In this document: positions 2 to 57,135 of the stretch, piece by piece
Position numbering within the stretch: the stretch's first letter is position 1
How the letters are laid out: each line of letters begins with the position of its first letter
Virus record (IMG/VR): IMGVR_UViG_3300036885_000228
Location: 30,368-94,367 of that record
Strand: one strand, 5' to 3'
DNA: 64,000 nucleotides
From: a virus
Lineage: Duplodnaviria > Heunggongvirae > Uroviricota > Caudoviricetes
Program-made: the position numbers and the translations under genes
Notes under the pieces: model-generated
What the model saw: the letters and a program-made list of their open reading frames with translations, nothing else
What the model was told of the DNA's origin: nothing
Database searches by the model: none

Positions 2-3000
2 AATGATGGTTATATTCCACCGCCAAATGATGCATCTATTACTAATGATGCTGATATTAAATCTTTAAATTCAGAAAAAACCTTTACTGAAGATGGTAAT
101 ATTGTAGAACTCGTTGGTGATAAACCATTTTCTAATGATGGATTAGTTCTTCCTGCTAATAGTTCAAGTATAACAATTACTGAAGGAATTCAATATACGA
201 TATATCAGAGACATACTGGTAATGTTAGAGATATTACAATTGCTGGAACTTATACTGGCTCACCAACCACTATTGAAGCTAGAGTTTTAAAAGATGATTT
301 AAGTTCAGTTATAGTCGATTGGACTACAATAGTTGCATCACCAACTGGTGGTGTATATTCTGGTGTTTTAACAGCAGTTCCTCAAGGTGGATGGTATAGA
401 ACTCAAGTTCGTTTTTCAAATGATGTATCAAAGATGTCCATCACTCTTAATATTTGGGGAATTGGTGCTATTATTGGTATTACTGGTCAGTCCAATGCTC
501 AAGTTTTGGGCAATGACATAAACGGTGTACAAACCCAAAACTTAACAAGAAAATATACAAACAGAAATTATCCGTCTCCTGGTTATTATGATAATACTGC
601 TACGGGAACAGTAGCACTTGCTAATCAGTTGATGGATTCGTTGAACATTCCAGTTTTGATACTTTCACAAGGAATAAATAGTACTCCTATTACAGATTGG
701 AATTCTGCTGGAGGGTATGCATATTCACAATTTAAAACTGCAGTTACTACTGTTGGTGGTGAACTTGAAGCAATTTGTTATCTACAAGGAGAATATGAAG
801 CAGACCCTGCTCATCCAATGGATACTGCTACATACACTACTAATCTTAATACTTTAATCTCTTTATTTAGAAGTGATATTACGTGGGCAAGAAGTGATAA
901 GCCTATTGTTATTACTCAGTTAGACAGACATGATATTGGAACTGATTCAAATTGGGAAGCAATCAAAACGGCACAGAAAAACATAGTTAATGAAGGAAAT
1001 TATATTTATGGATTTATGTGCGGTGATGTTGAGGTCGTTGATGGAATTCATTATCAATGGGCAACTTGGCCAATTGGTGCGGCTAGAGTTGGTGAAAGAC
1101 TGGGTTTAGCTTTATTGTATCATTTTGGTTTAGTAGGTTATTATAAAGGACCGACAATTTTACATTATAGTCAGCATTCATCGACTGAGATTGATATTGT
1201 AATACAGAATAATGGTGGAACAGATTTTGTTCCAATTTCTGGAATTACAGGATTTGAGGTATTTGATAATAGTAGCCCAAAAACAATTTCTTCTACTGTT
1301 AGAATAAATTCAACCACTATTAGATTGACTGTTAGTAGTCCAATAGTAAATATTACAAATGTCAGGTATATGTATGGCACATATCCACCTGACCAATTAT
1401 ATTGGTTGACTGGTCCAGTTAGAGATAATACTTCTCATAATTTACCGTTACAAGATACGAGTAATATTTTAGGTTATATAGAAGAAACTTTTACAAATGA
1501 TGGAATATTAAAGACTTTAGATAATTCAAAAACGTTTACTGAAGATGCAATAATTAGAGATGTTTCTGGTGATAAAAGTATAACTGAAGATGCTATTGTA
1601 CAGTCTTTGAATAATGAGATTTTCACCACTGACGCAATGGTTACAGTTAACACTTTAGTTATTGATGTTTTAGCAGTTGGTGGTGGAGCTGGTGGTGGTG
1701 GTGGTACTAGCGGAAATGGAGGTTCTGGTGGTGGAGGAGCTGGAGGATATCAATATATTACTGGTCATAATGTTTCTGTAGGTAGTTATGCGGTAACTGT
1801 TGGTAATGGTGGAACTGGAGGAAATCCTTATTCTTCTGGAGATTCTGGTGGAGATTCAGTTTTTGACACAATCACTGCTAATGGTGGTGGTTCTGGTGGT
1901 AATGCTAATGGTGGAGGTACTGGAGGTAATGGAGGCTGTGGTGGTGGTGGTGGTGCATATTGTGCAGGAGGAACAGGTTCTCAAGGAGGTAATGGTGGTA
2001 GTAGTTCTTTGCCTCCTCTTGGAGGTGGAGGTGGTGGAGGTGCTAACGGAAATGGTAGTAATAATAGAGGAGCTGGAGGAGATGGATTGGCTAATTCGAT
2101 ATCAGGTGTATCAGTGACTTATGCTGGTGGTGGTGGAGGAGGTTATGGAATTGGAGCTGGAGGAACTGGTCTTGGTGGGGCTGGTGGAGGTGGCAATGGT
2201 GGAGCTGACCAGCAAAATGGAAGTAATGGAACTGACGGACTTGGAGGTGGAGGTGGTGGAGGTGCTCATAGTAGTCCAGGTTCGACTAGTGGTGGAAATG
2301 GTGGTTCGGGTGTCGTCATAATTAGATATTTGACTTCTGATTTTGGGGTTTGTACTGGAGGAATTAAAACAGTAGATGGAAGTTATACTGTTCATACTTT
2401 TACAAGTAATGGAACGATGATTTTTACTGCACCTCCATTAGTTTCTTTTACAAATGATGGTATATTAAAAGAAATTTATGATAAAGATTTTACTACTGAT
2501 GGTTATGTAAAATTTGTTATAGATAAGACCTTCACTGTAGATGCAGTAGTAAAAAGTTTAAATGACAATACTTTTACTAATGATGGAGTATTAAAAAGTT
2601 TGAATAATACTCATAGTTTTTTTGAAGATGGAATATTAAAAATATTAAATATAGACAAAACATTTACTGAAGATGGAGTATTACAAGTTTTTGATAATGA
2701 TATAAATTTTACTGTAGACGGTTTGGTTTATTTCTTTAATTATCATTTTTTAGGTCAAGATGGAATTATTTTTTCTGAAGTAGATAAAATGTTCACTGAA
2801 GATGGATATGTTGTAATACGAGTGACTCACGAAGAAACTTTTACAAATGATGGAATTGTCAAAATTAAAAATAATGATTTAAGTCTTACTGAGGATGCTG
2901 AAATTAAAGAAATAAATGAGTTATCTTTTTCAGAGGATGGTGATATTAAAAGTTTTGATATAAATAAAACATTTACCAATGATGGAATTAGTAAAGTTTT

Positions 3001-3979
3001 AAATAATACTAAAGACTTTACTGAAGATGGAATTTTAAAAGTAAAAGACAATGAAATTATTTTCACTGAGGATGCTTCGGTTAAATCATTTAATAATGTT
3101 TCTTTTACTAATGATGCAGATGTTGAAGCACATACTGATAAAATTTTTACAACTGATGGAATTGTATTGAAAAATACAATTGAGTTTACTAATGATGCGA
3201 TTATTATTTCTCAAGGAACAAGTGTCATTTTTAATGGTTTAAATATCAATGGAGTTACGTATATTACTGAAAATACATCACATGATAGTGATCCAGTCAG
3301 AGTTTTAGCTTCTTATAAGATTGCTAGAAGAGATGGAGAAAAGCTAGTCAGTGCTTATTGGGGTAAAAAAGAAATAACAATTAATGGATATATTCAAGAT
3401 GATAATCAGCAAGAGTTTGAATTAGATGTTGATATTTTTAAAAAGATTACTTCACAAAAATCTGGTAGTCTTGAGATTATGTACAATAATCAGTTTAGAA
3501 GATACATTGCTACAGTTGAAGAACTTAAAATTAGTCGTGATTCATATAACATTGATTGGTCACCCTTTAGTATTAAATTTTTAGTTCCAGATGGAAAAGG
3601 ATATGATACTAGCTCTACTATTGAGACGTATTCAGTCGTGATAACTTCTGGAAGTGTCTTTGCTGGAACATTTTACAATGATGGAACAGCAGATGCATTT
3701 CCAACTATCAGAATTCAAATAAATAGTCTTTCTTCAGTTAATTCATTTTATTTGTCTGATGGAATACGAATATTAACTATAACAAATACATTTCATAATG
3801 GAGATATTATTACAATTGATTTCCTGAATTTTATAATCAAATTGAATATTGCTCAGATTAATTCTTCTGGAGCTTTCCCATTATTTCCAGTCGGTGGAAC
3901 AAATTTTAGATTATACACAGATGGCACTAGTTCTGCTAATTTAACAGTTTCGTTTATTTACGATAAAGCCTACTTATAA
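2..3979 (+). CDS. Fibre-like structural protein, 5' partial, with SGNH/sialate-O-acetylesterase-like motif, 16-aa FTEDG repeat arrays and a poly-Gly tract
   Basis: The frame of ORF 434..3979 stays open back to nt 2, and the upstream peptide (..KTFTEDGNIVELVGDKPFSNDG..) continues the same repeat, so the gene starts left of the window. A GQSN motif (IGITGQSNAQ, ~nt 480-530) is typical of SGNH/SASA esterases. FTEDG/FTNDG 16-aa repeats at 1480-1640 and 2440-3200. GGxGG low-complexity tract at 1680-2340. Confidence 0.75.
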   Translation, partial: NDGYIPPPNDASITNDADIKSLNSEKTFTEDGNIVELVGDKPFSNDGLVLPANSSSITITEGIQYTIYQRHTGNVRDITIAGTYTGSPTTIEARVLKDDLSSVIVDWTTIVASPTGGVYSGVLTAVPQGGWYRTQVRFSNDVSKMSITLNIWGIGAIIGITGQSNAQVLGNDINGVQTQNLTRKYTNRNYPSPGYYDNTATGTVALANQLMDSLNIPVLILSQGINSTPITDWNSAGGYAYSQFKTAVTTVGGELEAICYLQGEYEADPAHPMDTATYTTNLNTLISLFRSDITWARSDKPIVITQLDRHDIGTDSNWEAIKTAQKNIVNEGNYIYGFMCGDVEVVDGIHYQWATWPIGAARVGERLGLALLYHFGLVGYYKGPTILHYSQHSSTEIDIVIQNNGGTDFVPISGITGFEVFDNSSPKTISSTVRINSTTIRLTVSSPIVNITNVRYMYGTYPPDQLYWLTGPVRDNTSHNLPLQDTSNILGYIEETFTNDGILKTLDNSKTFTEDAIIRDVSGDKSITEDAIVQSLNNEIFTTDAMVTVNTLVIDVLAVGGGAGGGGGTSGNGGSGGGGAGGYQYITGHNVSVGSYAVTVGNGGTGGNPYSSGDSGGDSVFDTITANGGGSGGNANGGGTGGNGGCGGGGGAYCAGGTGSQGGNGGSSSLPPLGGGGGGGANGNGSNNRGAGGDGLANSISGVSVTYAGGGGGGYGIGAGGTGLGGAGGGGNGGADQQNGSNGTDGLGGGGGGGAHSSPGSTSGGNGGSGVVIIRYLTSDFGVCTGGIKTVDGSYTVHTFTSNGTMIFTAPPLVSFTNDGILKEIYDKDFTTDGYVKFVIDKTFTVDAVVKSLNDNTFTNDGVLKSLNNTHSFFEDGILKILNIDKTFTEDGVLQVFDNDINFTVDGLVYFFNYHFLGQDGIIFSEVDKMFTEDGYVVIRVTHEETFTNDGIVKIKNNDLSLTEDAEIKEINELSFSEDGDIKSFDINKTFTNDGISKVLNNTKDFTEDGILKVKDNEIIFTEDASVKSFNNVSFTNDADVEAHTDKIFTTDGIVLKNTIEFTNDAIIISQGTSVIFNGLNINGVTYITENTSHDSDPVRVLASYKIARRDGEKLVSAYWGKKEITINGYIQDDNQQEFELDVDIFKKITSQKSGSLEIMYNNQFRRYIATVEELKISRDSYNIDWSPFSIKFLVPDGKGYDTSSTIETYSVVITSGSVFAGTFYNDGTADAFPTIRIQINSLSSVNSFYLSDGIRILTITNTFHNGDIITIDFLNFIIKLNIAQINSSGAFPLFPVGGTNFRLYTDGTSSANLTVSFIYDKAYL

Positions 3980-3982
3980 AAT

Positions 3983-5608
3983 ATGTTAATAGCTTTTGAT
4001 GCATATACTGCTGGTGGTGATAATGGCGGTTCAAGTAATAGTTTGACTTACTCCCATACTTGTACAGGAAGTAATGGAATACTTTTTGTGGGTGTTCGTG
4101 GTGATGTGTTAAATGATTACGTTACTAGTGCGACTTATAATGGTGTAGCAATGAGTCTTGCTGGAAAACAGATATGTAATGGTGATAGATATGTATATTT
4201 GTTTTATTTGAAAGGTCCAGCAACTGGAACTCATAATGTTGTTGTAACTGCTAGTCAAACAATTTTAATTTCAGCAGATTCTACATCGTATACTGGTGCA
4301 TCACAAGGTGTGGGGTTAGATGCAACATCAGTCCAACAAGATGGAGGTTCTTCACCGTCTAATTTTTCAATAACAACTGTAGCTGATAATTGTTGGGTTA
4401 TTGAATGTATGCATTCTCAGTCAAATGTAACAGCTGGAGTGGGAACGACATTAAGGTCTGATGGAACAATACAACGTCCTCATCTGTGTGATACGAATGG
4501 ACCAAAAACACCAGCTGGTTCTGTTACATTGTCTTTGAATATTACTCCAGATTATAAAAATACAACAGCAATTTTAGCTTCATTTGAACCCTTTGGAATG
4601 GTTACTGAAGATGAAACATTTACAGAAGATGCTAGTATTTTACAGATTACGAATAAGACAATTGATAATGATGGAAATATTAAGATTTTAAATTCTGATA
4701 ATATTTTTACTGAAGATTGTCTTGTTCTTAATACACTTAATCGACTTTTTACTGAAGAAGGAATAGTACAAAATACGAGTAATACTGGTTTAACTGAAGA
4801 TGGTCTTACTCGTGATACATTTGGTAAGATTTTTTCTGACGATGGTATAGTCCGTGATACATTTATAGAAAGTATTATTGAAGATGGAATTATACATGTT
4901 ACTTTCACTAAGGATATTACTGAAAATGGTTTAATTAGAGATACTTTCAATAAAACTTTTTCTGACGATAGTATAATCCGTGATACATTTGATGTAAATA
5001 TTACTAATAATGGAATTGTTAAATATTCTAATAATAGAACATTTACTAGTGATGCAATAATAGTTAAAGCTAACCAAATTTTAAATTTTACTAATAATGG
5101 AAATGTTCTTATTGCTAATATTGATAAGAATTTTACTGACGATGCGATTATTCATAATGCTTATACGTTTAAATCATTGTCTAATGATGGATATGTTTCA
5201 GTCGTATCTCCAGGAATTTCTGGGCCGATGTGGGCTTTATTTACTCATAAATGCAATGTGAAAAGAAGAGCAACATATCCAATAAAAGATGCATTAAATG
5301 CTCCGAGTTATGGTACAGTCAATACGTGGATGAATGTATATGTAAATTTACCTTGTCGATTAGAAATAAGTAGTTCAGACATTCAATTCAAACCTACTGG
5401 TGAAAGAGTTGCACCAACAAATATTCTTTATGTTGATGTCTCGACACCTCTTAAAATTGAAGATCGAGTTTTTATGGTTTTTGATTCAAAAAATGATGTT
5501 GCTGGACTTGGATATCAACAAGAATTTATAGTTCAAGGTACTGTGCCAGCTTTGACGATGTTAGGACAGACTGGACATCATTCAGAATATATTTTAGTAA
5601 TGCCATGA
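3983..5608 (+). CDS. Fibre-like protein 2 (FTEDG 16-aa repeat array, 4600-5200)
   Basis: 541-aa ORF starting 4 nt after the previous stop. Central block of ..TFTEDG/FSDDG.. repeats related to those in 2..3979 and 12849..16598. Confidence 0.7.
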   Translation: MLIAFDAYTAGGDNGGSSNSLTYSHTCTGSNGILFVGVRGDVLNDYVTSATYNGVAMSLAGKQICNGDRYVYLFYLKGPATGTHNVVVTASQTILISADSTSYTGASQGVGLDATSVQQDGGSSPSNFSITTVADNCWVIECMHSQSNVTAGVGTTLRSDGTIQRPHLCDTNGPKTPAGSVTLSLNITPDYKNTTAILASFEPFGMVTEDETFTEDASILQITNKTIDNDGNIKILNSDNIFTEDCLVLNTLNRLFTEEGIVQNTSNTGLTEDGLTRDTFGKIFSDDGIVRDTFIESIIEDGIIHVTFTKDITENGLIRDTFNKTFSDDSIIRDTFDVNITNNGIVKYSNNRTFTSDAIIVKANQILNFTNNGNVLIANIDKNFTDDAIIHNAYTFKSLSNDGYVSVVSPGISGPMWALFTHKCNVKRRATYPIKDALNAPSYGTVNTWMNVYVNLPCRLEISSSDIQFKPTGERVAPTNILYVDVSTPLKIEDRVFMVFDSKNDVAGLGYQQEFIVQGTVPALTMLGQTGHHSEYILVMP

Positions 5609-5611
5609 TAT

Positions 5612-6013
5612 ATGCAGATAGGAATAAATTTTACTGGATTAACCCAATTTCAGAATAAAATTAAAACAAGACCACAATTTGCAGAAAGTGCTGCACTATT
5701 AGCAATGAAAGCTGTTATTAAGAAAATTGAGACAGATATCAAAAAAGATATAAATATACGAGGAACAATTCCAAGTTTGCCAGGAGAACCACCACATAAA
5801 GTTACTGGAAATTTATATAGTAATGTTTATAGTCGAGCAGAAAAGACTGGAAATATGACAATTACAGGAATTATAGGAGACACTGCTGAATATGCTGCAT
5901 ATCTTGAATATGGGACTTCACGAATGGCTCCTCGCCCATATTTTAGAATAAATATTGATAGAAATACTCAAATGTTTGAAAATCTAATGAAAGGGATATT
6001 AGGTAAAATATAA
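5612..6013 (+). CDS. HK97 gp10-family head-tail joining/tail component
   Basis: 133 aa. C-terminal ..TGNLYSNVY.. and AEYAAYLEYGTSRMAPRPYF match the HK97 gp10 family signature (GxLRxS ... YAxxVEfGT). Confidence 0.65.
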   Translation: MQIGINFTGLTQFQNKIKTRPQFAESAALLAMKAVIKKIETDIKKDINIRGTIPSLPGEPPHKVTGNLYSNVYSRAEKTGNMTITGIIGDTAEYAAYLEYGTSRMAPRPYFRINIDRNTQMFENLMKGILGKI

Positions 6014-6019
6014 TCTTAT

Positions 6020-6415
6020 ATGCTTGCAGTCTACGAAAATGTAATTAATACAATCAAAAATGATTCAATAATACAATCATTTGTTAGTGATAGAGTTTAT
6101 CCAGAAGGAGTTGACATTAATCCAGAAGTTTTACCGATGGTGACTGTTCATCATATCAGTGAGATAGTTCATACAGTCCCAAGAAATGACCGAATGATAC
6201 AAATGCAAGTTAGTATTTGGTCAAAACTAAGTGAATTGGAAGTTGAGCAAATTGCTGAGAGAGTTGAAGACTTGTTAAATTTTCAGACATTTGATACCGG
6301 TTATGGTTCGGCAATACAAAGATGGCAAAGAATGGATACTGGTGCAGATTTGTTTGAATCAGATAGAAGAATTTGGCACAAAGCTTTAACATTTAGAATT
6401 TGGGCAAGACCCTAA
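6020..6415 (+). CDS. Hypothetical neck/tail completion protein
   Basis: 131-aa ORF packed between the gp10-like and putative major tail genes. No recognisable motif. Confidence 0.45.
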   Translation: MLAVYENVINTIKNDSIIQSFVSDRVYPEGVDINPEVLPMVTVHHISEIVHTVPRNDRMIQMQVSIWSKLSELEVEQIAERVEDLLNFQTFDTGYGSAIQRWQRMDTGADLFESDRRIWHKALTFRIWARP

Positions 6416-6538
6416 ATTATTTATTTTTCAAATATGAGAGTATCGACTCATAAATGAAAATTAATATAGGATGAAAATCCATTGCAGTAAAAAAGGTCGA
6501 ACTGCAAAAATTAATTAACAAAGATAGTACAAAACATT

Positions 6539-7015
6539 ATGCCGTTAATTCCAGGTGGTGCTCCATTAGCTACAAGAGTAACATTTAATTCAGGCTATGT
6601 AGATTTTGGCAGTAACCGAATAGTTCAACTTGATAATGTAAAGATTGAAACTACAGTTACTGATGCTCAATTAAGACAGTTAAATTCAATAAAAATGGCT
6701 GCTCTTAAAAGAAAATCTTTAACTATTAAGATGACTGGTAAAGTAAAATCGTTTAACAGAGAAATGTTTGAGACCTATTTTGGTGCAAGTTCTACCGATG
6801 GAAGTGGAACTTTGATATCATTTTTCGATGGTCAGCAAACTACTTTGAATCCGAATTTTACGTCTTATGTTGATGATGACAATGCTAAACCTTTTCAATG
6901 TCAATTGATTAATGCTGTAATTTTATCAATGCCTGTAACAGCAAGTATTGAAAATTACGGAGAAGTTGACTTTGATATGGTTGCTACCGACATCAAGATT
7001 TACGATGTAGAATAA
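6539..7015 (+). CDS. Putative major tail (tube) protein
   Basis: 158 aa. Lies immediately upstream of the chaperone/frameshift/tape-measure trio, as in siphovirus tail modules. Assigned by position only. Confidence 0.4.
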   Translation: MPLIPGGAPLATRVTFNSGYVDFGSNRIVQLDNVKIETTVTDAQLRQLNSIKMAALKRKSLTIKMTGKVKSFNREMFETYFGASSTDGSGTLISFFDGQQTTLNPNFTSYVDDDNAKPFQCQLINAVILSMPVTASIENYGEVDFDMVATDIKIYDVE

Positions 7016-7060
7016 TTAATTAATGTCTCAACGGAAGAACCGTGAGATAAAATTAAAAGT

Positions 7061-7393
7061 ATGTTACAAGAAATAATAAACACTCCATTTGAAATACAAT
7101 TGGGTGAAAACAAAGTAAAAGTCAAAAGAGCATCACTTAAAGATTTTGCGATGCTTCAAGAGTATTCAAGAGTCGCAAAAGACGATCCAGATGTGATTAT
7201 CAAACAAATGGCTTATGCAATTCGTCTTTGCATTTTGAAAGCAATTGATAATGAAGAAGATAAATCAAAAATTACAGATGATTATGTAATGGAGTTGATT
7301 CCATTGTCAGAGGTTAGAAATTCTCAAAATATTCTAACTCAATTAGGTTTTATGTTGCCCACGGAGACGAAGATCGGAGAAGTAAAGAAGTAG
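7061..7393 (+). CDS. Tail assembly chaperone (G-like)
   Basis: 110-aa ORF directly upstream of the tape measure. Its -1 frame stays open across its stop codon (see 7318..7587). Confidence 0.6.
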   Translation: MLQEIINTPFEIQLGENKVKVKRASLKDFAMLQEYSRVAKDDPDVIIKQMAYAIRLCILKAIDNEEDKSKITDDYVMELIPLSEVRNSQNILTQLGFMLPTETKIGEVKK

Positions 7394-7587
7394 AGGATAG
7401 TGCTTCGTGGGAAGAAATTTTTGCATTTTTTATCGAAAAGACTGGTTGGACTATTGATGATATTTCAGATTTGACATTTGAGCAATTAAAAGTGTATCTA
7501 GACATTTGGACAAGGACGAAAAAAGAGAAAGCATCGTCGAAAAGTGAAATTGAAATGTTTAAACAACAGATGAAAAGAATAAAATAA
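7318..7587 (+). CDS. -1 frame extension (T part) of the tail assembly chaperone; putative programmed frameshift product GT
   Basis: The frame -1 relative to 7061..7393 is open from 7318 to TAA 7585-7587. It has no ATG and encodes EDSASWEEIFAFFIEKTGWTIDDISDLTFEQLKVYLDIWTRTKKEKASSKSEIEMFKQQMKRIK. It ends 1 nt before the tape measure ATG (7589). Confidence 0.55.
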   Translation, partial: KFSKYSNSIRFYVAHGDEDRRSKEVEDSASWEEIFAFFIEKTGWTIDDISDLTFEQLKVYLDIWTRTKKEKASSKSEIEMFKQQMKRIK

Positions 7588-7588
7588 T

Positions 7589-9862: not shown

Positions 9863-10040
9863 AAGTTTGTATTGAAAGACATATATTCTATCATATTAAT
9901 CATAAAGATTCATCTGACATCATTCAGATGACATCATTTATATACAGAATTGGGCTATTGTCCATTGCTTGTAGTCGAGAAGCATAAACTAATTAATGTC
10001 AATCATTTAAATCAAAATACATAATGATTTAAGTACAAAG

Positions 10041-10544
10041 ATGAGTGCTACAGTAAGCGTCAAACAAGTTGTTGGAGGTGGAGCTGGAACAGCTACCACT
10101 ATCACAAACTTGAGACACAATACCGATGACACAATCAATCCAGGAACAACCAATCCTTTGGTTAAACCGGCTGCAGGAACGAATTATGGTTATTGGAAGA
10201 CAGTCTATCTGAATGCAGATACTGCTCCTTCTAATGTGATCAATAATGTACGTTTCTTCTCTGATGGAACCGTTGGTTGGACTGGCGTAACTCTTTATTC
10301 GGGTACAACCACTGCTTATACTCAAGCAACTGGAACTGCTGGAACTACTGGTGATGTTTCTAGTGTTGCTACAACCAACATTGAAACTTATACTTCGGGT
10401 TCTCCGTTGTCAGTTAGTGGTTCGATTACCGCTGCGACTGGTGTTATTTCAGCGAATGTTATTTTGCAAGCGAGAGTTTCTACTTCCGCAGTTGCAGGAA
10501 CATTGGCTCAGGAAACGACTACTTTCAGATATGACGAAACTTAG
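10041..10544 (+). CDS. Thr/Gly/Ser-rich putative structural protein
   Basis: 167-aa ORF after a 180-bp spacer that contains TGACATC direct repeats. Composition (TTAYTQATGTAGTTG..) suggests a structural or fibre-like protein. Confidence 0.45.
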   Translation: MSATVSVKQVVGGGAGTATTITNLRHNTDDTINPGTTNPLVKPAAGTNYGYWKTVYLNADTAPSNVINNVRFFSDGTVGWTGVTLYSGTTTAYTQATGTAGTTGDVSSVATTNIETYTSGSPLSVSGSITAATGVISANVILQARVSTSAVAGTLAQETTTFRYDET

Positions 10545-10620
10545 AGAGTAGATAATTATTTAGGGTTGTTTAATACAATAAACTCTCTTACTAATTATTA
10601 ATTAAATTAAATTCAAAAAT

Positions 10621-10989
10621 ATGAACGAGTATAATTGGGTGGTTTATTATGCTGATGGTAGTAAACTAACTGAAAAAAAAGAAGATGGGACATTAAGAAG
10701 TACACAAGATATTGATAGGTCTAAACTTAAAATCTTTCAGCTTTTTGATGGAGAGGTATTAAAATATTCTTTATTTTTGAAAGAAGGACAAAGATTTATT
10801 TTTAGAAGAAGAAAGACTATTAATTGTGCAAGCCAAGTATTAGATATTGTGTATTTGATTGGTTATCAATTTAATGACACAACAGGAAAGAATTATAAAG
10901 TCTTAAATTATGTCCATATAGATGGACTAATAGAAATGGATGATGACCGTAGTGATTTAGTTTTATTACAAGAAGAAGAAATTAAATAA
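10621..10989 (+). CDS. Hypothetical protein
   Basis: 122-aa ORF with no recognisable motif. Confidence 0.4.
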   Translation: MNEYNWVVYYADGSKLTEKKEDGTLRSTQDIDRSKLKIFQLFDGEVLKYSLFLKEGQRFIFRRRKTINCASQVLDIVYLIGYQFNDTTGKNYKVLNYVHIDGLIEMDDDRSDLVLLQEEEIK

Positions 10990-11004
10990 TTAATAAACAA
11001 ATTT

Positions 11005-12825
11005 ATGCGTGGTGGTAAGCTTAAAATTTTGTGGAGTTCTGTTTCACCTCAAGTTGAAACGGGATATGGAAGAGTTTCAAAAGAAATAGTTACAAGATTA
11101 AAAAAAGCAGGATTCGATATTATATATCACGGATATCAGCATCAGTTCAACCAGGATTGGGATGGTATCCAGATTTTAAAAACAGGAGAAAAAGAGCAAT
11201 TTGGTGAAGATGTTCTTACAAAATATTTTAATAAATATGAAAGAGATGTGGTAATTACTCTTTTCGACTTGTGGAAATTAAATTTTATGCCTAAGTTAGG
11301 TATTCGATGGATTCCATATTTTCCAATTGATGCAGCACCACTGACTGAACCTTTAATTGAACCTGCTAAATCTGCGTATAAGAGAATTTGTTTTAGTGAT
11401 TTTGCAAAAGAATTACTTGATAATGCAGGTATAGAAAATTCAATGATACCTCACGGTATTGATACAAAAGTCTTTAAGCCTCTGACTAATCGAGACGAAT
11501 TAAGAAAGAATTCAGGAATTGATAAAGATGATTTTATCATAGGTACAGTTGGAATGAATATTTTCGACAGAAAAGACTTTCCAAGAATGATTCGGATATT
11601 TAGTGAATTTGTTCATAAGAATAAATTAGAAAATGCTTATCTATATTTACATACTAATCCAGACATTGAACCGCCATTTGGTTTTAATATCAAAGTTTTA
11701 GCAAAACAATATAGAGTTGAGAAATTTGTAAGATGTTTTCAAAAGAATCCATTTGTTGAACCTTTACAGAATACAGGTTTAGCAAAAATGTATAACACCT
11801 TTGATGTGACAATGATAACGAGTCGTGCAGAAGGTTGTTGTTTACCAGTTTTAGAATCTCAAGCCTGTGGAGTTCCTTGCATTGTTTCTGATTATTCGGC
11901 AACTCCAGAATGGGTTAGAGGTCATGGTTGGACAGTTAAAGCGGATGACTATATTCACGCTTTAACAACTACAATGATGAACCATTGGCATTTGATGGAT
12001 ATTAATGAAGGAGTTAAAGCATTAGAAGATGCATATTTTAATAGAGGAAAAATCAAAAAATATGGAAAAATTGCAAGAGAAGAAATGCTAAAATATGATT
12101 GGGATAAGATTGTTGAAGAGAAATGGGTACCATATTTGAATGCTTTAGAAAAAGAAATATATTCTGAAACAAGAAAAATTAAAGTCAATGGTAAAGAAAT
12201 GATTGTCAGAAATGATACCATTGATGAACTTGTAGTGAATTCAGTAATAGGTCAAGGTGAGTATCGAAAAATGATTGAACTGACTAAAAAAGATAGATGG
12301 TTAGACATTGGTGGACATATTGGTTCATTTACGGTCGATATATCAAATGAAGTTGAAAATGTTTATATTTTTGAACCTGTTAAAGATAATTGGAAATTAT
12401 TGTTAAAAAACACAGAAAGTTTTACTAATGTAGGGACATATAATTACGCAATAATTGGTACTGATGATAAGACCAGAAAACTGAATCTTTTTTTACAAGG
12501 TGAACAAAATACTGGAGGGCATTCCTTAATTGGTGAAGGAGACGGAGAAGAAATCAAATGCAAAAATATAAATAATGTACTTGATGAATTCGGAATCAAT
12601 AAAATTAAATTAGATTGTGAAGGTAGTGAATATGAGATATTGAAAGCAATCACAGAGGATAATTTAAAGAAGATGAAAGAGATTATTCTTGAATACCATT
12701 TTAATCTTTTGGGTTTATCAAAATTTGAAGAACTGGTTAAATATCTTGAACCGAATTTTAAAGTTAATATTTCTAGATATATTGACATTGCTGGACAAAC
12801 TATTATTCATTGTAAAAGATTATAA
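11005..12825 (+). CDS. Glycosyltransferase (GT1/GT4-like) fused to an FkbM-family methyltransferase domain
   Basis: The N-terminal ~370 aa have the GT-B C-terminal signature (..ESQACGVPCIVSDYSATPEWV.., EX7E-like). The C-terminal ~200 aa match FkbM methyltransferases (..WLDIGGHIGSFTVD.., ..KIKLDCEGSEYEILKAI..). Confidence 0.7.
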   Translation: MRGGKLKILWSSVSPQVETGYGRVSKEIVTRLKKAGFDIIYHGYQHQFNQDWDGIQILKTGEKEQFGEDVLTKYFNKYERDVVITLFDLWKLNFMPKLGIRWIPYFPIDAAPLTEPLIEPAKSAYKRICFSDFAKELLDNAGIENSMIPHGIDTKVFKPLTNRDELRKNSGIDKDDFIIGTVGMNIFDRKDFPRMIRIFSEFVHKNKLENAYLYLHTNPDIEPPFGFNIKVLAKQYRVEKFVRCFQKNPFVEPLQNTGLAKMYNTFDVTMITSRAEGCCLPVLESQACGVPCIVSDYSATPEWVRGHGWTVKADDYIHALTTTMMNHWHLMDINEGVKALEDAYFNRGKIKKYGKIAREEMLKYDWDKIVEEKWVPYLNALEKEIYSETRKIKVNGKEMIVRNDTIDELVVNSVIGQGEYRKMIELTKKDRWLDIGGHIGSFTVDISNEVENVYIFEPVKDNWKLLLKNTESFTNVGTYNYAIIGTDDKTRKLNLFLQGEQNTGGHSLIGEGDGEEIKCKNINNVLDEFGINKIKLDCEGSEYEILKAITEDNLKKMKEIILEYHFNLLGLSKFEELVKYLEPNFKVNISRYIDIAGQTIIHCKRL

Positions 12826-12848
12826 GTTTGACATAACTTCAGAACACG

Positions 12849-15800
12849 ATGATATATGATGCTCTAATACAATATGATGCGTCAAATACCACTTATGATG
12901 GTAAGACGTTAAATATAGATAAAACTTTTACTAATGATGGGATTGTCAAAGTTTTAAATAATGACAAAGCATTTATTGAAGATGCTATTGTTAAAGTTTT
13001 AGACAACTCAAAAACTTTTACTACTGATGCAATTGTTAAGGTACTAAATAGTGTTCAGACTTTTACAAATGATGGAGTACTTAAGACATTAAATATTGAT
13101 AAAACTTTCACGGAAGATGGAGTTATTAAAGTTTTCAATAATGATAAAGACTTTATTAATGATGGGGTTGTTAAAATACTAGACAATGAGTCAACTTTTA
13201 CAGAAGATGGACTTGTCCGTGAAACGTTTGACGGAATATTCACAAATGATGGAATAGTTCGAGATACATTCATACAAATATTTACTGAAGATGGAATCAT
13301 TGAAGTTTTTAATACTGATAAAAATTTCACTAATGATGGAGTCATTAAAGTTCTCGATAATCTCACTATTTTTACAGAAGATGGTTTAATCCGTGAAACT
13401 TTCGTTAAAACATTCACGAATGATGCTATTGTCAAAATTTTAAATATAGTCAAGACATTCACTAATAATGGATATGTTCAAGAAATTGGTGATTCAGCAA
13501 TTGATACTGATGGGTTAATTCGAGAAACTTTTGATATAACAATTGATGAAGACGGCTTAGTCAGAGAAACTCTTGATAAGAATTTCATTGAAGATGGTTT
13601 AGTTCGTGATACTCTTATTGAAACTTTCATTGAAGATGGTCTTATTCGTGATACGTTCATTACAACTTTTACTCAAGACTGTCTTGTTCGTGATACTTTT
13701 GAATTAGATTTAACGGAAGATGGTGTAATCAAAACTCTTGATAATAATAGTAGTTTTACAAATGGAGGTCTCATTCAAGATACTTTTGATAATTTTTTTA
13801 CGGACGATGGTTTAGTTAGTGGACTTATTGAGTTTACAATTGATGGTATTATATTTGGTACTCTCGATTTAGATTTCACTAATGATGGTAGAGTTAAAGA
13901 AATTCAATCTCAAATTTTTGGTAATGATGGAATTGTTAAGACTTTTGATAATAATTCAGACTTTACTGAAGACGGAGTAGTTAAAGTTTTTGACAATAAT
14001 TTAACCTTTACAGAAAATGCATTACTTAAAATTGTAAATATTGATGAAACTTTTACTACTGATGCAATTGTTAAAGCTACTTCAACTATCAACTTTTTCA
14101 ATAATGGAATTGTTTTTGATGCAAATGTAATTACTGGATCTTTTCATAATAAAAGTTTTTATTATAAAATTTTAAAATCGAATGGTACATATATTACGAC
14201 CTGGTCGTCTGAAGTAGTTAATGATCCAACTTTTAAGTCTGTCATCAATGGGGGTTTGTCAGAATTAATAATTAAACTTGCTAGAGAATTCAATTCAATT
14301 GATGAAGATGATTCAAATCGAGATATAAATTTTAGAAATGAAATTCAATTATGGATTCAAGATCTTGAAGAACCAAATGGTCTATTAATTTATGATGGAT
14401 TTATTTCGGATTATAGTCCATACCTTGATGGAAATGATGAATATATTAATGTAACATGCCTTGGTTATGTTGACGATTTAAGTTCATCTGAGTTAATTGA
14501 TTCAAATCATAATACTGCTATCACGTATCCATCATCACTTCATCCACAGACTGATCCAGGGGATATCATTAAAAATATTCTAATTCTAAGTGCTGGTAAA
14601 ATTACTGGAACTTCAACAGTTTTTAATACTGGAACATCTGTCAATTATACATTTAATAATTCGACAGTAAAAGACGCAATTGATAAAGCAAAAGATATGT
14701 CTTTAGCTGATTGGTATTGGTTTGTCGGTGTTGACAATAAATTGCATTTTCAGGAATCTAATGTTACAGTTGATCATACTTTATTTATTGAACGAGACAT
14801 TTTGAAGATTGACACATATAAGACTATTCGTGATTTAAAGAATGAAGTTCGGTTCATCGGTGGATATACGAATCCACTTGATCCTACTGATACGACTCAA
14901 TTATACAAGGTTTATCAAGATTCTGCATCAATAGCATTGTATGGAAAAAGAAGTCATACAATTGTCGACACAAAAGTCATAGTTGAAACAACTGCTAATG
15001 CTCAAGCAAATAAATTTTTAGAAGAACATAAAGACCCATTTGTTCGTTCAACTATTGAAGTTATTGATAGTAATGGAGACCAGACAAGGGGTTATGATAT
15101 TGAAAGTTTAAAGCCAGGAGATACAGTTCAAATCATTGATCCAAGAATGCCATCAGATTCACAAGTTTATTCTTTTTCTCAGCCTTTTATAATTCAAACA
15201 GTAACTTATGAATTTGATAAAGCTACTATTGAGCTTTCGGTAAGACCGCCCTGGATTGCTCTTGCACTTCAGAGACAAATTAATGCTTTATCACAGGATC
15301 AGAATTCAAATATCCCAACTCATCCGATTGGAACTGGTGTTGATGATCTTTCGACTATTGTTAATACTCAGGTTTATGGTGCTGATAATCAGCCAGGACA
15401 ATTAGTTGTTCTCAATGGAAAGTTAACAGTTACAGATTCTGGAGGAACTACAACAATTTCTGGTGGAAAAGTTACAACTTCTGGAGTCGACTTCGTAGTT
15501 GTTGGTTCAAATAATATTGTCGCAACTATAAATGCTTCAATAGAAGGTATAACAATTGCAGCTAATAAAATAACAATTAGTGGTTCGACTACTTTTACAT
15601 CTGGATATGACCCGTCAACAAAAGTCGCAGCTCTTGCTGGAACGTATTCTAGTGCGACGATAGGTCCTAAAGTTCAGATATTTCCAGATGCAAATACTGG
15701 TATTGTAATAAATAATGGGACAAATGATGTATTTGTTTCAAAAGTTGGAGGAGTAGATGTTGGTGATGTGATTATTGGAAATTATTCTACTGGTCAGGGA

Positions 15801-16598
15801 ATAAAATATGATAGTTCTGCTAATACTACAACTTTTCAAGGTGCGATTGCTGCTGCAACAGTTTCTAGTGGTTCAATAGTTATTGATACAAATGGAAATA
15901 TCAGAAGTGGTCAAACTGCTTATAATACAGGAACAGGTTTTTGGTTTGGTAGTGTCAGTAGCATCCCAAAGTTTTCAATTGGAAATTCTGCTGGAAATCG
16001 AATTACTTGGGATGGTTCAACTCTTAATGTTGTTGGTTATATTGCAACAAATGGTGCTTTAGTTGATGTTCAAAACAATGCATCTGATTTATCGACTATT
16101 AGGCCAGGTCTTGGAAATATTACTTCTGGAACATTTAAAGTTAGTACAAGTATTGCAATTCAAAAAAGTACTTCTGTAGCTGTTGGGTATATTGGACAAG
16201 ACCCAGGAGCTACTGGAATTTGGGGGTTTATTGCTGAAAGAGGATATGGTTTAATGTGCAGATATTCTGGAAATAATTACTTTCGTATTTTTGTAGATTC
16301 GGGAGGTAGCAATGATGCAATTATTGATTTGCCAAGTCCGAATATGTTAAAGATTCAGGATAATGATGGTAGTGCTATTGCTAGATTTTATGGAAGTAAT
16401 GCTGGATTTACGAATCAAGGAGGATTAGACATGATAGGTTCTCTCCGTTTATTTACTACAAATACTCCACCGACTGGAGCTTCAAATGGCATATTGTTTT
16501 ATCATACTACATGGAATGAAGTTTGGGCTTATCTAAATGGTGCTTGGCATGCTTTTGCAGATAAAGATTGGGTTACTGCTAATTTTGTTCATAAATAA
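12849..16598 (+). CDS. Giant fibre/host-specificity protein (N-terminal FTEDG repeat array, C-terminal beta-rich domain)
   Basis: 1249 aa. About 25 tandem 16-aa repeats (12900-14100). Downstream are Gly/Thr/Ser-rich beta-strand-like segments (..TVTDSGGTTTISGGKVTTSGVDFVVVGS..). Confidence 0.7.
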   Translation: MIYDALIQYDASNTTYDGKTLNIDKTFTNDGIVKVLNNDKAFIEDAIVKVLDNSKTFTTDAIVKVLNSVQTFTNDGVLKTLNIDKTFTEDGVIKVFNNDKDFINDGVVKILDNESTFTEDGLVRETFDGIFTNDGIVRDTFIQIFTEDGIIEVFNTDKNFTNDGVIKVLDNLTIFTEDGLIRETFVKTFTNDAIVKILNIVKTFTNNGYVQEIGDSAIDTDGLIRETFDITIDEDGLVRETLDKNFIEDGLVRDTLIETFIEDGLIRDTFITTFTQDCLVRDTFELDLTEDGVIKTLDNNSSFTNGGLIQDTFDNFFTDDGLVSGLIEFTIDGIIFGTLDLDFTNDGRVKEIQSQIFGNDGIVKTFDNNSDFTEDGVVKVFDNNLTFTENALLKIVNIDETFTTDAIVKATSTINFFNNGIVFDANVITGSFHNKSFYYKILKSNGTYITTWSSEVVNDPTFKSVINGGLSELIIKLAREFNSIDEDDSNRDINFRNEIQLWIQDLEEPNGLLIYDGFISDYSPYLDGNDEYINVTCLGYVDDLSSSELIDSNHNTAITYPSSLHPQTDPGDIIKNILILSAGKITGTSTVFNTGTSVNYTFNNSTVKDAIDKAKDMSLADWYWFVGVDNKLHFQESNVTVDHTLFIERDILKIDTYKTIRDLKNEVRFIGGYTNPLDPTDTTQLYKVYQDSASIALYGKRSHTIVDTKVIVETTANAQANKFLEEHKDPFVRSTIEVIDSNGDQTRGYDIESLKPGDTVQIIDPRMPSDSQVYSFSQPFIIQTVTYEFDKATIELSVRPPWIALALQRQINALSQDQNSNIPTHPIGTGVDDLSTIVNTQVYGADNQPGQLVVLNGKLTVTDSGGTTTISGGKVTTSGVDFVVVGSNNIVATINASIEGITIAANKITISGSTTFTSGYDPSTKVAALAGTYSSATIGPKVQIFPDANTGIVINNGTNDVFVSKVGGVDVGDVIIGNYSTGQGIKYDSSANTTTFQGAIAAATVSSGSIVIDTNGNIRSGQTAYNTGTGFWFGSVSSIPKFSIGNSAGNRITWDGSTLNVVGYIATNGALVDVQNNASDLSTIRPGLGNITSGTFKVSTSIAIQKSTSVAVGYIGQDPGATGIWGFIAERGYGLMCRYSGNNYFRIFVDSGGSNDAIIDLPSPNMLKIQDNDGSAIARFYGSNAGFTNQGGLDMIGSLRLFTTNTPPTGASNGILFYHTTWNEVWAYLNGAWHAFADKDWVTANFVHK

Positions 16599-55204: not shown

Positions 55205-55275
55205 GCGACTGTAAGATAATGGCAATCTGACAGTTTTCCAAACTGTAAACGTGGGTCCGATTCCCACTAGTCGCA
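55205..55275 (+). tRNA. tRNA-Gly(UCC)
   Basis: Acceptor gcgactg/tagtcgc. D arm agat-aatggca-atct. Anticodon arm acagt-tttccaa-actgt (anticodon tcc). T arm gtggg-tccgatt-cccac with an unusual C at position 55. Discriminator a. No encoded CCA. Confidence 0.7.
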
Positions 55276-55294
55276 CAAAATTGTTTATTTGTAC

Positions 55295-55431
55295 GTGAAT
55301 AGAAGTGACATCAGAGTTACTTCTCATTGTAAGAGAGTGGTCATTGGTTCGAGTCCAATTTTTAGTCGAAAGGCTAAAATAGCTCAGTTGGTAGAGCACT
55401 TAAATTTCTCTGATAAATTTTCTCTATTCAC
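55295..55431 (+). ncRNA. Y-RNA-like RNA with tRNA-like module (T arm plus GAAA-capped acceptor-like stem plus D arm), closed by long terminal helices
   Basis: T arm attgg-ttcgagt-ccaat (55343-55359). Stem ttttagtc / GAAA loop / ggctaaaa (55360-55379). D arm gctc-agttggta-gagc (55382-55397). No anticodon arm follows. Terminal helix gtgaataga(55295-55303)/tctattcac(55423-55431) and inner helix atcagag(55310-55316)/ctctgat(55408-55414). Lies 440 nt downstream of the Ro60 gene. Confidence 0.55.
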
Positions 55432-55449
55432 TTATAAGTAAATAATCAA

Positions 55450-57130: not shown

Positions 57131-57135
57131 CAATT

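What the first reader, a model, noticed from the sequence alone, without database searches (positions are those of the whole stretch)
434..16598. Three fibre-like genes share a 48-bp (16-aa) FTEDG tandem repeat (>60 copies overall)
Blocks at 1480-1640, 2440-3200, 4600-5200 and 12900-14100 are imperfect tandem repeats of a 48-nt unit encoding approx. (D/N)K(T/D)FT(E/N)DG(I/V)VK(V/I)LNN. The repeat continues upstream of the window. The units are similar enough at DNA level to allow unequal recombination within and between the three genes. That would change fibre length and mosaic structure, a built-in host-range or phase-variation mechanism. I do not recognise this repeat as a named phage fibre repeat family. 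The first two fibre-like genes also sit upstream of the gp10-like/neck genes, where head genes would be in HK97-like order, so they could be head fibres rather than tail fibres.
Basis: seen in the sequence. Interest (0 to 1): 0.55.

Follow-up and report, generated by a model that had tools for sequence, protein, structure and literature searches.

The report
Repeat stalks on three phage virion proteins
One uncultured tailed phage has added the same undescribed 14-15-residue repeat, probably as a stalk carrying sugar-binding or sugar-cleaving domains, to its neck, tail-hub and tail-tip proteins; the arrays are old and stable, not a rapid switching device.

Summary
The repeat is real and far above chance. 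There are 67 units in the window and 71 in the three complete genes. The unit is 14-15 aa (42/45 nt), not 16 aa/48 nt.

All three proteins end in a virion anchor:
- ORF1 (1916 aa, runs off the 5' end of the window) ends in a distal tail protein (Dit).
- ORF2 ends in a neck (stopper-like) domain.
- ORF3 ends in a Tal-like tail-tip protein.

Sibling phages encode the same three anchors with 0/0/0 or 1/2/6 units, against 14/29/28 here. The arrays are therefore N-terminal add-ons that grew over evolutionary time. In ORF1 and ORF2 they link LamG, SGNH-esterase, glycine-rich and "minor-tail" domains.

The repeat marks a rare family with no name in the libraries searched: 427 cluster representatives among 1.84 billion, no match in local Pfam, NCBIfam, PDB or the literature.

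The proposed recombination or phase-variation mechanism is not supported. Units are only about 52% identical in DNA. Exact shared runs reach 28 nt within a gene and 18 nt between genes. The arrays are identical in contigs from at least five samples, while a glycine tract in ORF1 did change length.

"Head fibres" does not fit this phage, but it may fit a second clade that encodes such proteins in its head module. The fold of the repeat remains unknown.

The parts
2..3979 (+). ORF1, the 3' 1325 codons of a 1916-aa gene. Full order: DUF2341/LamG, 3 units, 'minor-tail' domain, 4 units, beta-sandwich, SASA esterase, 4 units, Gly-rich domain, 18 units, Dit.
   Evidence: In frame with no stop from base 2. 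Full length in P0005 and L003. Pfam domains.
38..172 (+). Repeat block A of ORF1: 3 units of 15 aa. A fourth unit lies partly upstream of the window.
   Evidence: P0005.
611..988 (+). SASA / SGNH carbohydrate-esterase domain of ORF1.
   Evidence: Pfam PF03629, E = 2e-9, 37.9 bits against a cutoff of 24.8.
1490..1666 (+). Repeat block B of ORF1: 4 units.
1646..2329 (+). Glycine-rich domain (Gly_rich_2) of ORF1. This is the only place where strains differ in length: indels of -3 and +9 nt at about 2143 and 2172.
   Evidence: PF21722, E = 2.6e-23; phrog_2295; indels in L004.
2447..3229 (+). Repeat block C of ORF1: 18 units of 13-16 aa.
   Evidence: TRF.
3206..3976 (+). Distal tail protein (Dit) module at the C-terminus of ORF1.
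   Evidence: Sipho_tail 27 bits (cutoff 24.2) and SPP1_Dit 23.5 bits. phrog_33 Dit, E = 3e-17. 45% identical to the stand-alone Dit of L001 and 44% to that of L008.
3983..5608 (+). ORF2, 541 aa: N-terminal globular 'minor tail protein' domain (3983-4585), 14 repeat units (4619-5221), C-terminal neck domain (5216-5605).
   Evidence: phrog_2106 and phrog_553. N-domain 58% identical to ORF1 aa 384-578. Units. C-domain.
4619..5221 (+). Repeat array of ORF2: 14 units, mostly the 14-aa subtype FTEDG[LI][VI]R[DE]TF.
   Evidence: TRF period 42.
5216..5605 (+). Neck (head-closure/stopper-like) domain of ORF2.
   Evidence: 63% identical to the stand-alone 154-aa protein of L001. Ten stand-alone homologues of about 145 aa. 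AF2 pLDDT 80-90. Top Foldseek hits are phage neck proteins: XkdH, and chains of the Douge connector, Mycofy1 head-to-tail interface, T1 stopper-terminator and lambda neck entries (E = 1.5e-3 to 3e-2, prob 1.0). It lies directly upstream of the Neck1, terminator and tube genes.
5612..9862 (+). Context genes: tail completion/Neck1 (5612-6013), tail terminator (6020-6415), major tail protein (6539-7015), chaperone (7061-7393), tape measure (7589-9862).
   Evidence: PHROGs; orthologues in L001 and L008.
10041..12825 (+). Context genes occupying the place where relatives encode Dit: conserved 167-aa and 122-aa genes, then a GT4 glycosyltransferase fused to an FkbM methyltransferase (11005-12825).
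   Evidence: SNP hot spot at 11001-12043 in L004.
12849..16598 (+). ORF3, 1249 aa: short N-terminal cap, 28 repeat units, then a Tal-like tail-tip protein (about 14148-16595).
   Evidence: 51-67% identical to P0002/L001 Tal, which has no repeats and scores 33.9 bits on Prophage_tail PF06605 (cutoff 31.3). ORF3 itself scores 25.7 bits.
12927..14138 (+). Repeat array of ORF3: 28 units, a mix of the 15-aa and 14-aa subtypes.
   Evidence: TRF periods 45 and 42.

Best explanation
The FTxDG units form a beta-rich stalk or linker module. It makes up N-terminal extensions of three proteins, each fixed in the virion by its C-terminal part:
- ORF1 is fixed by the distal tail protein ring (Dit).
- ORF2 is fixed by a neck, stopper-like protein.
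- ORF3 is fixed by the Tal-like tail-tip protein.

In ORF1 and ORF2 the arrays act as spacers between and below globular modules: DUF2341/LamG lectin-like, a 'minor tail' domain, an SGNH/SASA esterase and a glycine-rich domain. They hold these modules away from the particle, where they can bind or deacetylate host surface polysaccharide during adsorption. In ORF3 the array itself is the exposed arm.

The arrays grew by tandem duplication from short N-terminal seeds, and modules were exchanged between genes. This happened over evolutionary time. Today the units are diverged in DNA, and the arrays behave as stable structural elements, not as a contingency locus.

Shown: the repeat anatomy, the anchor domains, orthology to repeat-free or short-array proteins in sibling phages, the family's distribution, the DNA divergence and the strain invariance. 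Inferred: the stalk role, the beta structure, the adsorption function and virion incorporation.
For: - Anchors. ORF1 C-terminus is Dit. The ORF2 C-terminus folds like phage neck proteins and sits directly upstream of the Neck1, terminator and tube genes. The ORF3 post-repeat part is Tal-like.
- Sibling phage L001 has stand-alone Hc-like (154 aa), Dit (268 aa) and Tal (702 aa) proteins with no units. Sibling L008 has 1, 2 and 6 units on the same three proteins. Ten stand-alone Hc homologues begin with one unit, and P0013 has about 16.
- No internal Met precedes the Dit or Tal part, so every copy should carry its arm.
- Globular domains sit between arrays.
- Family: 427 representatives. The co-occurring domain is mostly Laminin_G_3, and arrays usually lie between an N-terminal globular part and a C-terminal end piece.
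- Stability: units 52% identical in DNA, with no higher identity within than between genes. Arrays are identical in contigs from at least five samples and in all cluster alleles.
- Precedent: carbohydrate-binding modules on neck, Dit and tail proteins of lactococcal siphophages (PMC6669499).
Against: - The fold of the array is unknown. The AF2 monomer model had pLDDT 45 and its Foldseek matches were meaningless. Whether the stalk is rigid, monomeric or trimeric is open.
- Nothing shows directly that the proteins are in virions or bind anything.
- The neck assignment of ORF2 rests on marginal Foldseek E-values (1.5e-3 and weaker) plus synteny. No sequence family matched.
- ORF3 scores below the Pfam cutoff for Prophage_tail.
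- ORF3 and P0013 carry no distal globular domain, so for them 'spacer' is an incomplete description.
- The strains compared are nearly clonal, so invariance is a weak test.
Confidence: 0.6

Rival explanations
1. First reader's model. The arrays are recombination-prone, and unequal crossing-over within and between the three genes changes fibre length and mosaic structure at useful frequency, giving a host-range or phase-variation device.
For: - Unit number differs greatly between related phages: 0/0/0, 1/2/6 and 14/29/28.
- ORF1 and ORF2 share a 58%-identical domain flanked by arrays.
- The Dit gene has moved relative to L001 and L008.
- Two exact repeats of 26-28 nt exist within genes.
Against: - Mean unit DNA identity is 52%. 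Within-gene identity (0.51-0.54) equals between-gene identity (0.51-0.55), so there is no concerted evolution. Exact runs between genes are 18 nt or less.
- The same holds for arrays in other phages, L002 and L010.
- Arrays are identical in L003-L007 and in P0005, P0283, P0285 and P0286. All ORF3 alleles are 1249 aa.
- In the 98.6% strain, length changed only in the Gly-rich tract.
Confidence: 0.1
2. The array is itself the adhesin: a lectin-like beta-hairpin solenoid, in the manner of cell-wall or choline-binding repeats. It would bind a repetitive host polymer multivalently rather than act as an inert spacer.
For: - ORF3 and P0013 have arrays with only a short N-terminal cap and no distal globular domain.
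- Short arrays of 1-6 units in L008 are too short to be useful stalks.
- An aromatic F and a D-G pair are conserved in every unit.
Against: - The conserved positions (F1, T2, D4, G5, hydrophobic 6, 7, 9, 10) look like core and turn residues. The variable positions show no ligand-like conservation.
- No similarity to any known binding repeat in Pfam, NCBIfam or PDB.
- In most family members the arrays sit between recognisable lectin-like domains and the C-terminal end.
Confidence: 0.2
3. ORF1 and ORF2 are head fibres or decoration proteins, as their position upstream of the neck genes suggests.
For: - They lie between the head-tail adaptor (L003, 333 aa, phrog_442) and the neck genes.
- In four phages of another clade, array-bearing genes lie between portal and prohead protease/capsid.
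Against: - The ORF1 C-terminus is the only Dit in the window. It is orthologous to the Dit that sits between tape measure and Tal in L001 and L008.
- The ORF2 C-terminus is orthologous to a stand-alone neck protein.
- No capsid-binding domain was found.
Confidence: 0.05
4. The Thr/Asn-rich arrays are scaffolds for glycosylation by the phage's own glycosyltransferases, forming a glycan coat on the virion.
For: - Glycosyltransferase and methyltransferase genes lie inside the structural modules of the window (11005-12825), L003, L008, L009 and L017.
- Arrays are twofold enriched in T and N, and other family members are very T-rich.
Against: - The GT genes also occur in relatives with no arrays or only short ones (L008, L009), so they are not linked to array size.
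- There is no direct evidence of glycosylation.
- Thr is in any case favoured in beta strands.
Confidence: 0.05

Closest known systems
Carbohydrate-binding-module decoration of lactococcal/streptococcal siphophage virions ('evolved' Dit, Tal extensions, neck passage structure; Hayes et al. 2019, PMC6669499)
   Same: Several virion proteins at the neck, baseplate hub and tail tip of one siphophage carry extra lectin-like modules that are thought to aid adsorption. The parts are reused as modular 'bricks'.
   Different: - Here the add-ons are N-terminal extensions of up to about 1690 aa, built on a tandem 14-15-aa repeat.
- From my own knowledge of the field, evolved Dits carry insertions within the C-terminal galectin domain instead.
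- The neck arm here is fused to the stopper-like protein itself.
- There is no sequence relationship.
Triple beta-spiral shaft of adenovirus fibre and reovirus sigma1 (about 15-residue pseudo-repeat)
   Same: The period is about 15 residues, with an invariant turn Gly and alternating hydrophobic residues, and the repeat serves as a shaft carrying a distal binding domain. This resemblance is recalled from established knowledge, not tested here.
   Different: - No sequence or profile similarity to any PDB chain.
- Polarity is reversed: the anchor is C-terminal here.
- Trimer formation could not be tested, and the AF2 monomer model was unreliable.
Mycobacteriophage-type 'minor tail proteins' with glycine-rich domains (phrog_553, phrog_2106, Pfam Gly_rich_2)
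   Same: The ORF2 N-domain and ORF1 aa 384-578 match these PHROGs. ORF1 holds a Gly_rich_2 domain.
   Different: PHROGs and the local Pfam copy have no model of the FTxDG arrays, and fusion to Dit or neck anchors is not a feature of these families.
Ig-like or other tandem-domain display arms on phage particles (T4 Hoc, fibritin whiskers, phi29 head fibres)
   Same: Accessory, repeat-built arms on capsid or neck that are thought to help find hosts. The second clade encodes FTxDG proteins in the head module.
   Different: The unit here is far shorter (14-15 aa against about 90 aa), it is unrelated in sequence, and in this phage the arms are anchored at the neck and tail tip.

Membership tests
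Distal tail protein (Dit): Pfam Sipho_tail PF05709 + SPP1_Dit PF22768 | N-terminal ring (RIFT-related) domain scoring above the Pfam cutoff | tested here: met
   27.0 bits against a cutoff of 24.2 on ORF1 aa 925-1181. phrog_33 'Dit', E = 3e-17.
Distal tail protein (Dit): Pfam Sipho_tail PF05709 + SPP1_Dit PF22768 | C-terminal galectin-like domain | tested here: inconclusive
   SPP1_Dit scores 23.5 bits, just under the cutoff of 25. It lies in the right order after the N-domain.
Distal tail protein (Dit): Pfam Sipho_tail PF05709 + SPP1_Dit PF22768 | Gene located between tape measure and Tal | tested here: not met
   In the window the gene lies between the adaptor and the neck genes. Its orthologues in L001 and L008 (44-45% identical) are in the canonical place, and no other Dit is in the window.
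Tal / Prophage_tail (PF06605) | Match to the family model above its cutoff | tested here: inconclusive
   ORF3 scores 25.7 bits against a cutoff of 31.3. Its homologue P0002, 51-67% identical, scores 33.9 bits.
Tal / Prophage_tail (PF06605) | Gene immediately downstream of Dit in the tail module | tested here: met
   True for the orthologues in L001 and L008. In the window it is the last large gene of the tail module.
Head-closure / stopper class of neck proteins (SPP1 gp16-like) | Fold similarity to solved neck proteins | tested here: met
   AF2 C-domain pLDDT is 80-90. The top Foldseek hits are mostly neck or connector chains (3f3b XkdH, 8zdl_M, 9lwa_A, 9l0e_A, 8k37_M), prob 1.0, TM about 0.5, E = 1.5e-3 to 3e-2. 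This is a marginal pass.
Head-closure / stopper class of neck proteins (SPP1 gp16-like) | Sequence-family match | tested here: not met
   No Pfam hit. The best PHROG hit is phrog_615 'head-tail adaptor', E = 0.22.
Head-closure / stopper class of neck proteins (SPP1 gp16-like) | Position between the adaptor and the tail-completion/terminator genes | tested here: met
   Window, L001, L008 and L009.
Triple beta-spiral fibre shaft | About 15-residue repeat with a turn Gly and alternating hydrophobic residues | tested here: inconclusive
   Period 14-15 aa, with G/A at position 5 in 61 of the 64 regular (14- or 15-aa) units. The pattern comparison rests on memory only.
Triple beta-spiral fibre shaft | Detectable similarity to solved shafts, or an intertwined trimer | tested here: not met
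   No PDB sequence or profile hit. The monomer model is unreliable. The trimer could not be tested with these tools.
Pfam PF27214 ('PM1083') | Match to the family model | not testable with these tools
   The model is absent from the local Pfam copy. Precomputed hits are listed for four relatives (P0004, P0007, P0008, P0011), and they are marked 'faint' for the three whose contigs were looked up. None is recorded for the window proteins.
Contingency / phase-variable tandem-repeat locus | Near-identical repeat units at the DNA level | tested here: not met
   Mean identity 52%, maximum 86%. The longest exact run is 28 nt.
Contingency / phase-variable tandem-repeat locus | Unit-number polymorphism among closely related genomes | tested here: not met
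   No indel in any array across L003-L007, P0005, P0283 and P0285-P0287. The sample is small and nearly clonal.

The most novel reading that the evidence does not exclude
The FTxDG unit defines a new, structurally unsolved stalk fold. It works as a general 'display arm' that grows at the N-terminus by tandem duplication from a single seed unit, and it can be attached to any symmetric virion component: capsid in one phage clade, and neck, Dit ring and tail tip together in this phage. If the usual oligomeric states of these components hold (my assumption, not tested), that would give roughly 12 + 6 + 3 arms per particle. On this reading, arm length and cargo, not the classical receptor-binding protein, would tune adsorption range.
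Probability: 0.3. Interest if true: 0.65.

Novelty: new variant of a known kind. Interest (0 to 1): 0.45.

Why it matters
- It defines an unannotated repeat family, present in hundreds of large proteins of uncultured phages, that current libraries leave blank.
- It gives a natural series within one phage lineage: the same three anchor proteins carry 0, 1-6 or 14-29 units. This shows how accessory adhesion arms are built onto neck, hub and tip proteins.
- That is useful for annotating metagenomic phages, for predicting which proteins contact the host, and as a candidate modular spacer for engineering.
- It also corrects a tempting but unsupported reading, that tandem repeats imply phase variation.

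Tried and rejected
- **GenBank phages.** Megablast and tblastn found no match.
- **IMG/VR, JGI metagenome and GTDB scans.** Queries with ORF2, P0005, the tube protein and its alignment gave nothing or only four loci, three of them short fragments. Host and habitat stay unknown, and few extra relatives were obtained.
- **AF2 of a 15-unit segment with a 20-row alignment.** pLDDT was 45. Its Foldseek hits (beta-helix proteins, E > 3) are meaningless, and I draw no fold from them.
- **PDB sequence and profile searches.** Only chance-level hits: OspB at E = 0.11, NXF1 at E = 0.44.
- **Pfam, NCBIfam and PHROGs on the arrays.** Nothing significant. I judged the Bactofilin, Serpin and L19 hits in the family survey to be repeat-composition artefacts.
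- **Literature search** for motif strings, PF27214 and PM1083: nothing relevant.
- **Exact look-up of ORF3 (P0001) for its source contig.** Not on record.
- **Internal starts** that would make array-free Dit or Tal: rejected, since no Met lies near the junctions.
- **Rfam on the window.** Only the seven tRNAs.


Full report
**Observation**

The window is AT-rich (31% GC). Its first 16.6 kb hold a run of same-strand ORFs. Tandem Repeats Finder reports arrays with periods of 42 and 45 nt at 2946-3042, 4793-5005, 12909-13175, 13547-13697 and 13943-14030.

Translation shows the arrays are longer than that, because the units have diverged. Anchoring on the F of F-T-x-D-G gives 67 units in the window:
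- 3 + 4 + 18 in ORF1 (38-172, 1490-1666, 2447-3229);
- 14 in ORF2 (4619-5221);
- 28 in ORF3 (12927-14138).

By length, 33 units are 15 aa, with consensus FT[NE]D[GA][IV][VI]K[VI]L[ND]NDKT. Another 31 are 14 aa, with consensus FTEDG[LI][VI]R[DE]TFDKT. One unit each is 16, 13 and 12 aa. The strict motif FT.D[GA] occurs 37 times in the six frames, against 0.4 in shuffles, and 36 of the 37 lie in the blocks.

ORF1 is open from base 2. The complete gene encodes 1916 aa with 29 units (P0005 and L003), so the three genes hold 71 units in all.

**What the three proteins are**

*ORF1.* From N to C it carries:
- DUF2341/Laminin_G_3;
- 3 units;
- a roughly 200-aa domain matching mycobacteriophage 'minor tail protein' PHROGs;
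- 4 units;
- a beta-rich segment, then a SASA/SGNH esterase;
- 4 units;
- a Gly_rich_2 domain;
- 18 units;
- a complete distal tail protein.

The Dit evidence is Sipho_tail at 27 bits (cutoff 24.2), SPP1_Dit at 23.5 bits, and phrog_33 at E = 3e-17.

*ORF2.* It has the same 'minor tail' domain, 58% identical to ORF1 aa 384-578, then 14 units and a 130-aa C-terminal domain. That domain has ten stand-alone homologues of about 145 aa. AF2 models it at pLDDT 80-90. Its best Foldseek matches are mostly phage neck entries: PBSX XkdH, the Douge connector, the Mycofy1 head-to-tail interface, the T1 stopper-terminator and the lambda neck. Probabilities are 1.0, TM about 0.5 and E = 1.5e-3 to 3e-2. The next genes are tail completion/Neck1, tail terminator, tube protein, chaperone and tape measure.

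*ORF3.* It is a 20-aa cap, 28 units and then a Tal-like protein. ORF3 itself scores 25.7 bits on Prophage_tail. Its homologue P0002 scores 33.9 bits against a cutoff of 31.3.

**Comparison with sibling phages**

This is the most informative result.

*L001.* This 11-kb contig has the canonical order: Hc-like (154 aa), Neck1, terminator, tube, chaperone, tape measure, Dit (268 aa), Tal (702 aa). These match the ORF2 C-terminus (63%), the ORF1 C-terminus (45%) and ORF3 aa 434-1236 (51-67%). None of them has a repeat unit.

*L008.* This 45-kb contig has the same order. Its Hc, Dit and Tal carry 1, 2 and 6 units at their N-termini, behind a 'MAYG..YG..YG' cap on Dit and Tal.

*Other Hc homologues.* Most stand-alone Hc homologues begin with a single FTxD unit, and P0274 seems to carry two. 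P0013 has about 16 units on the Hc domain and no globular head.

The arrays are therefore N-terminal add-ons to three different virion anchors, and they have expanded in parallel in the window phage to 14, 29 and 28 units. There is no Met at the array/anchor junctions of ORF1 and ORF3, so every Dit and Tal subunit should carry its arm.

The Dit fusion gene has also moved. In the window and in L003 it lies between the head-tail adaptor (333 aa, phrog_442) and ORF2, together with 507-, 93- and 295-aa genes. The usual Dit position after the conserved 167- and 122-aa genes now holds a GT4-FkbM methyltransferase fusion.

**Family**

A full scan of 1.84 billion cluster representatives with the ORF3 array found 427 proteins at E ≤ 1e-3, 184 at ≤ 1e-10 and 41 at ≤ 1e-30. 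Nearly all are 500-3300 aa long. In 55 of them the only recurrent credible partner domain is Laminin_G_3 (9 of 55). The other hits look like repeat-composition artefacts.

Arrays usually sit between an N-terminal globular part and a short C-terminal end piece, and several of those end pieces share a motif. In four phages of another clade (L002, L015, L016, L017), the array genes lie between portal-MuF and the prohead protease/capsid genes. In L002, two adjacent genes share the repeat.

No model in the local Pfam copy, NCBIfam or PHROGs matches the arrays. No PDB sequence does either, and no paper in the library contains the motif strings. Four relatives carry precomputed hits to PF27214 'PM1083'. 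These are marked 'faint' for the three that were looked up. The model is missing from the local copy, so I could not test it.

**Test of the recombination / phase-variation idea**

Units are on average 52% identical in DNA and 31% in protein. Identity within a gene (0.51-0.54) is no higher than between genes (0.51-0.55), so there is no sign of concerted evolution. The longest exact repeats are 28 and 26 nt within a gene, and 18 nt or less between genes. Arrays in L002 and L010 show the same pattern.

Contigs from five different samples carry the locus:
- L003, L005, L006 and L007 are at least 99.98% identical to the window, with no indel.
- L004 is a 98.6% strain. Its only length differences are -3 and +9 nt in the Gly-rich tract of ORF1. 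Apart from six mismatches near that tract, its SNPs all lie in 11001-12043, the glycosyltransferase gene.

All full-length members of the 90% clusters have 1249 aa (ORF3), or 1916, 1916 and 1918 aa (ORF1). The ORF3 alleles differ only by point changes.

The caveat is that the strains are nearly clonal. Unit number clearly does change over longer times, as the sibling phages show, and ORF1 and ORF2 share a paralogous domain. Duplication and module exchange built these genes, but not as a rapid switch.

**Structure**

A 15-unit segment with a 20-row alignment gave pLDDT 45. It showed short strands about every 7-8 residues, and only meaningless Foldseek hits.

The conserved positions are F1, T2, D4, G/A5, hydrophobic residues at 6, 7, 9 and 10, and a variable polar tail. 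I read this as two short strands joined by a D-G turn in each unit. Whether this makes a monomeric solenoid, a beta-meander or an intertwined trimer is unknown. The resemblance to the 15-residue triple beta-spiral of the adenovirus fibre is from memory and has no sequence support here.

**Mechanism proposed**

The arrays are stalks or linkers anchored by C-terminal virion modules. They expose lectin-like and esterase modules, and in ORF3 the bare array itself, at the neck, around the tail hub and at the tip, to help adsorption to a polysaccharide-covered host. The anatomy, orthology and stability are shown. Virion location, beta structure and function are inferred.

The nearest described system is the decoration of lactococcal siphophage necks, Dits and tails with carbohydrate-binding modules (PMC6669499). 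The present case differs in three ways: it uses a new repeat, it builds N-terminal extensions, and it fuses an arm to the neck protein.

**Verdict**

This is a real and well-defined repeat family and an unusual triple deployment in one phage. The kind is known (modular phage adhesion appendages) and the variant is new. Host, habitat and fold remain unknown.

Noticed in passing
window 2143 and 2172 (Gly-rich domain of ORF1, 1646-2329): The only length differences between the window and the 98.6%-identical strain L004 are in-frame indels of -3 and +9 nt in the glycine-codon tract. TRF also flags (TGG)9 at 1678-1705 and a 27-nt repeat at 1876-1931. This tract, not the FTxDG arrays, is the length-variable part.
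   Followed up: partly
window 11001-12043 (GT4 + FkbM methyltransferase gene, 11005-12825): 153 of the 159 mismatches between the window and L004 fall in this 1 kb, about 15% divergence. The other six lie near the Gly-rich tract (2001-2500), and the remaining roughly 10.5 kb are identical. This looks like an allele replacement or recombination hot spot in a glycosyltransferase that sits inside the tail module. L004 ends here, so the state of its ORF3 is unknown.
   Followed up: partly
L008 16650-19298; L001 172-636; window 12849-12926: Short N-terminal caps precede the arrays: 'MAYGSAEYAALPYGD' and 'MAYGIPSYGARSYGG' in L008, 'MIYDALIQYDASNTTYDG' in ORF3, and 'LLMEDGSALLQEDGSFILLDG' in P0013. 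This may be a conserved capping or assembly motif.
   Followed up: no
P0014-P0131 (homologues of ORF2 aa 1-201, window 3983-4585): The ORF2 N-terminal domain has more than 130 homologues. Many sit on quite different tandem repeats (P0097 'TTKTQTGxSRIT' of about 13 aa; P0019, P0037 and P0084 'LxDT/ISESF' types), so there appear to be several alternative stalk repeats under the same head domain.
   Followed up: no
L002 10001-15818; L015, L016, L017 (gene at 10001 in each): In a second phage clade, the FTxDG-array proteins are encoded between portal-MuF and prohead protease/capsid. Many family members end in a shared tail of the form 'GG[KR]..GL[YW].E.D.P...P.L', a possible docking peptide. These are candidates for head fibres.
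   Followed up: partly
window 55205-57917 and 53393-54856: A cluster of seven tRNA genes (Gly-TCC, Tyr, Phe, Cys, Asn, Thr-TGT, Ala) lies next to a TROVE/Ro60-like ORF. Phe, Thr and Asn are about twofold enriched in the arrays. Rfam finds no Y RNA or any other RNA family there.
   Followed up: partly
window 10041-10989; L008 14537-15420: Two small genes (167 and 122 aa) directly after the tape measure gene are conserved with L008 (63% and 41% identical) and match no family. They may be tail-tip or assembly components specific to this lineage.
   Followed up: no
L003 444-4193 (upstream of the window): The head-tail adaptor carries an N-terminal extension of about 130 aa with no family match; from the sequence alone it looks like a beta-sandwich. 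Three further genes (507 aa, a 93-aa protein that looks like a coiled coil, and a 295-aa glycine-rich protein) are inserted between the adaptor and ORF1. The whole neck region is an insertion site for appendage genes.
   Followed up: partly
window 21503-51589: The replication module includes a family B DNA polymerase (49358-51589), a primase-polymerase/DnaB helicase fusion (32299-33894), ThyX (47803-48849), an RNA ligase (21503-22801) and an NAD-dependent sugar epimerase/dehydratase (46863-47816). The source is a 94-kb phage genome with no relative in GenBank phages, IMG/VR or GTDB genomes.
   Followed up: partly
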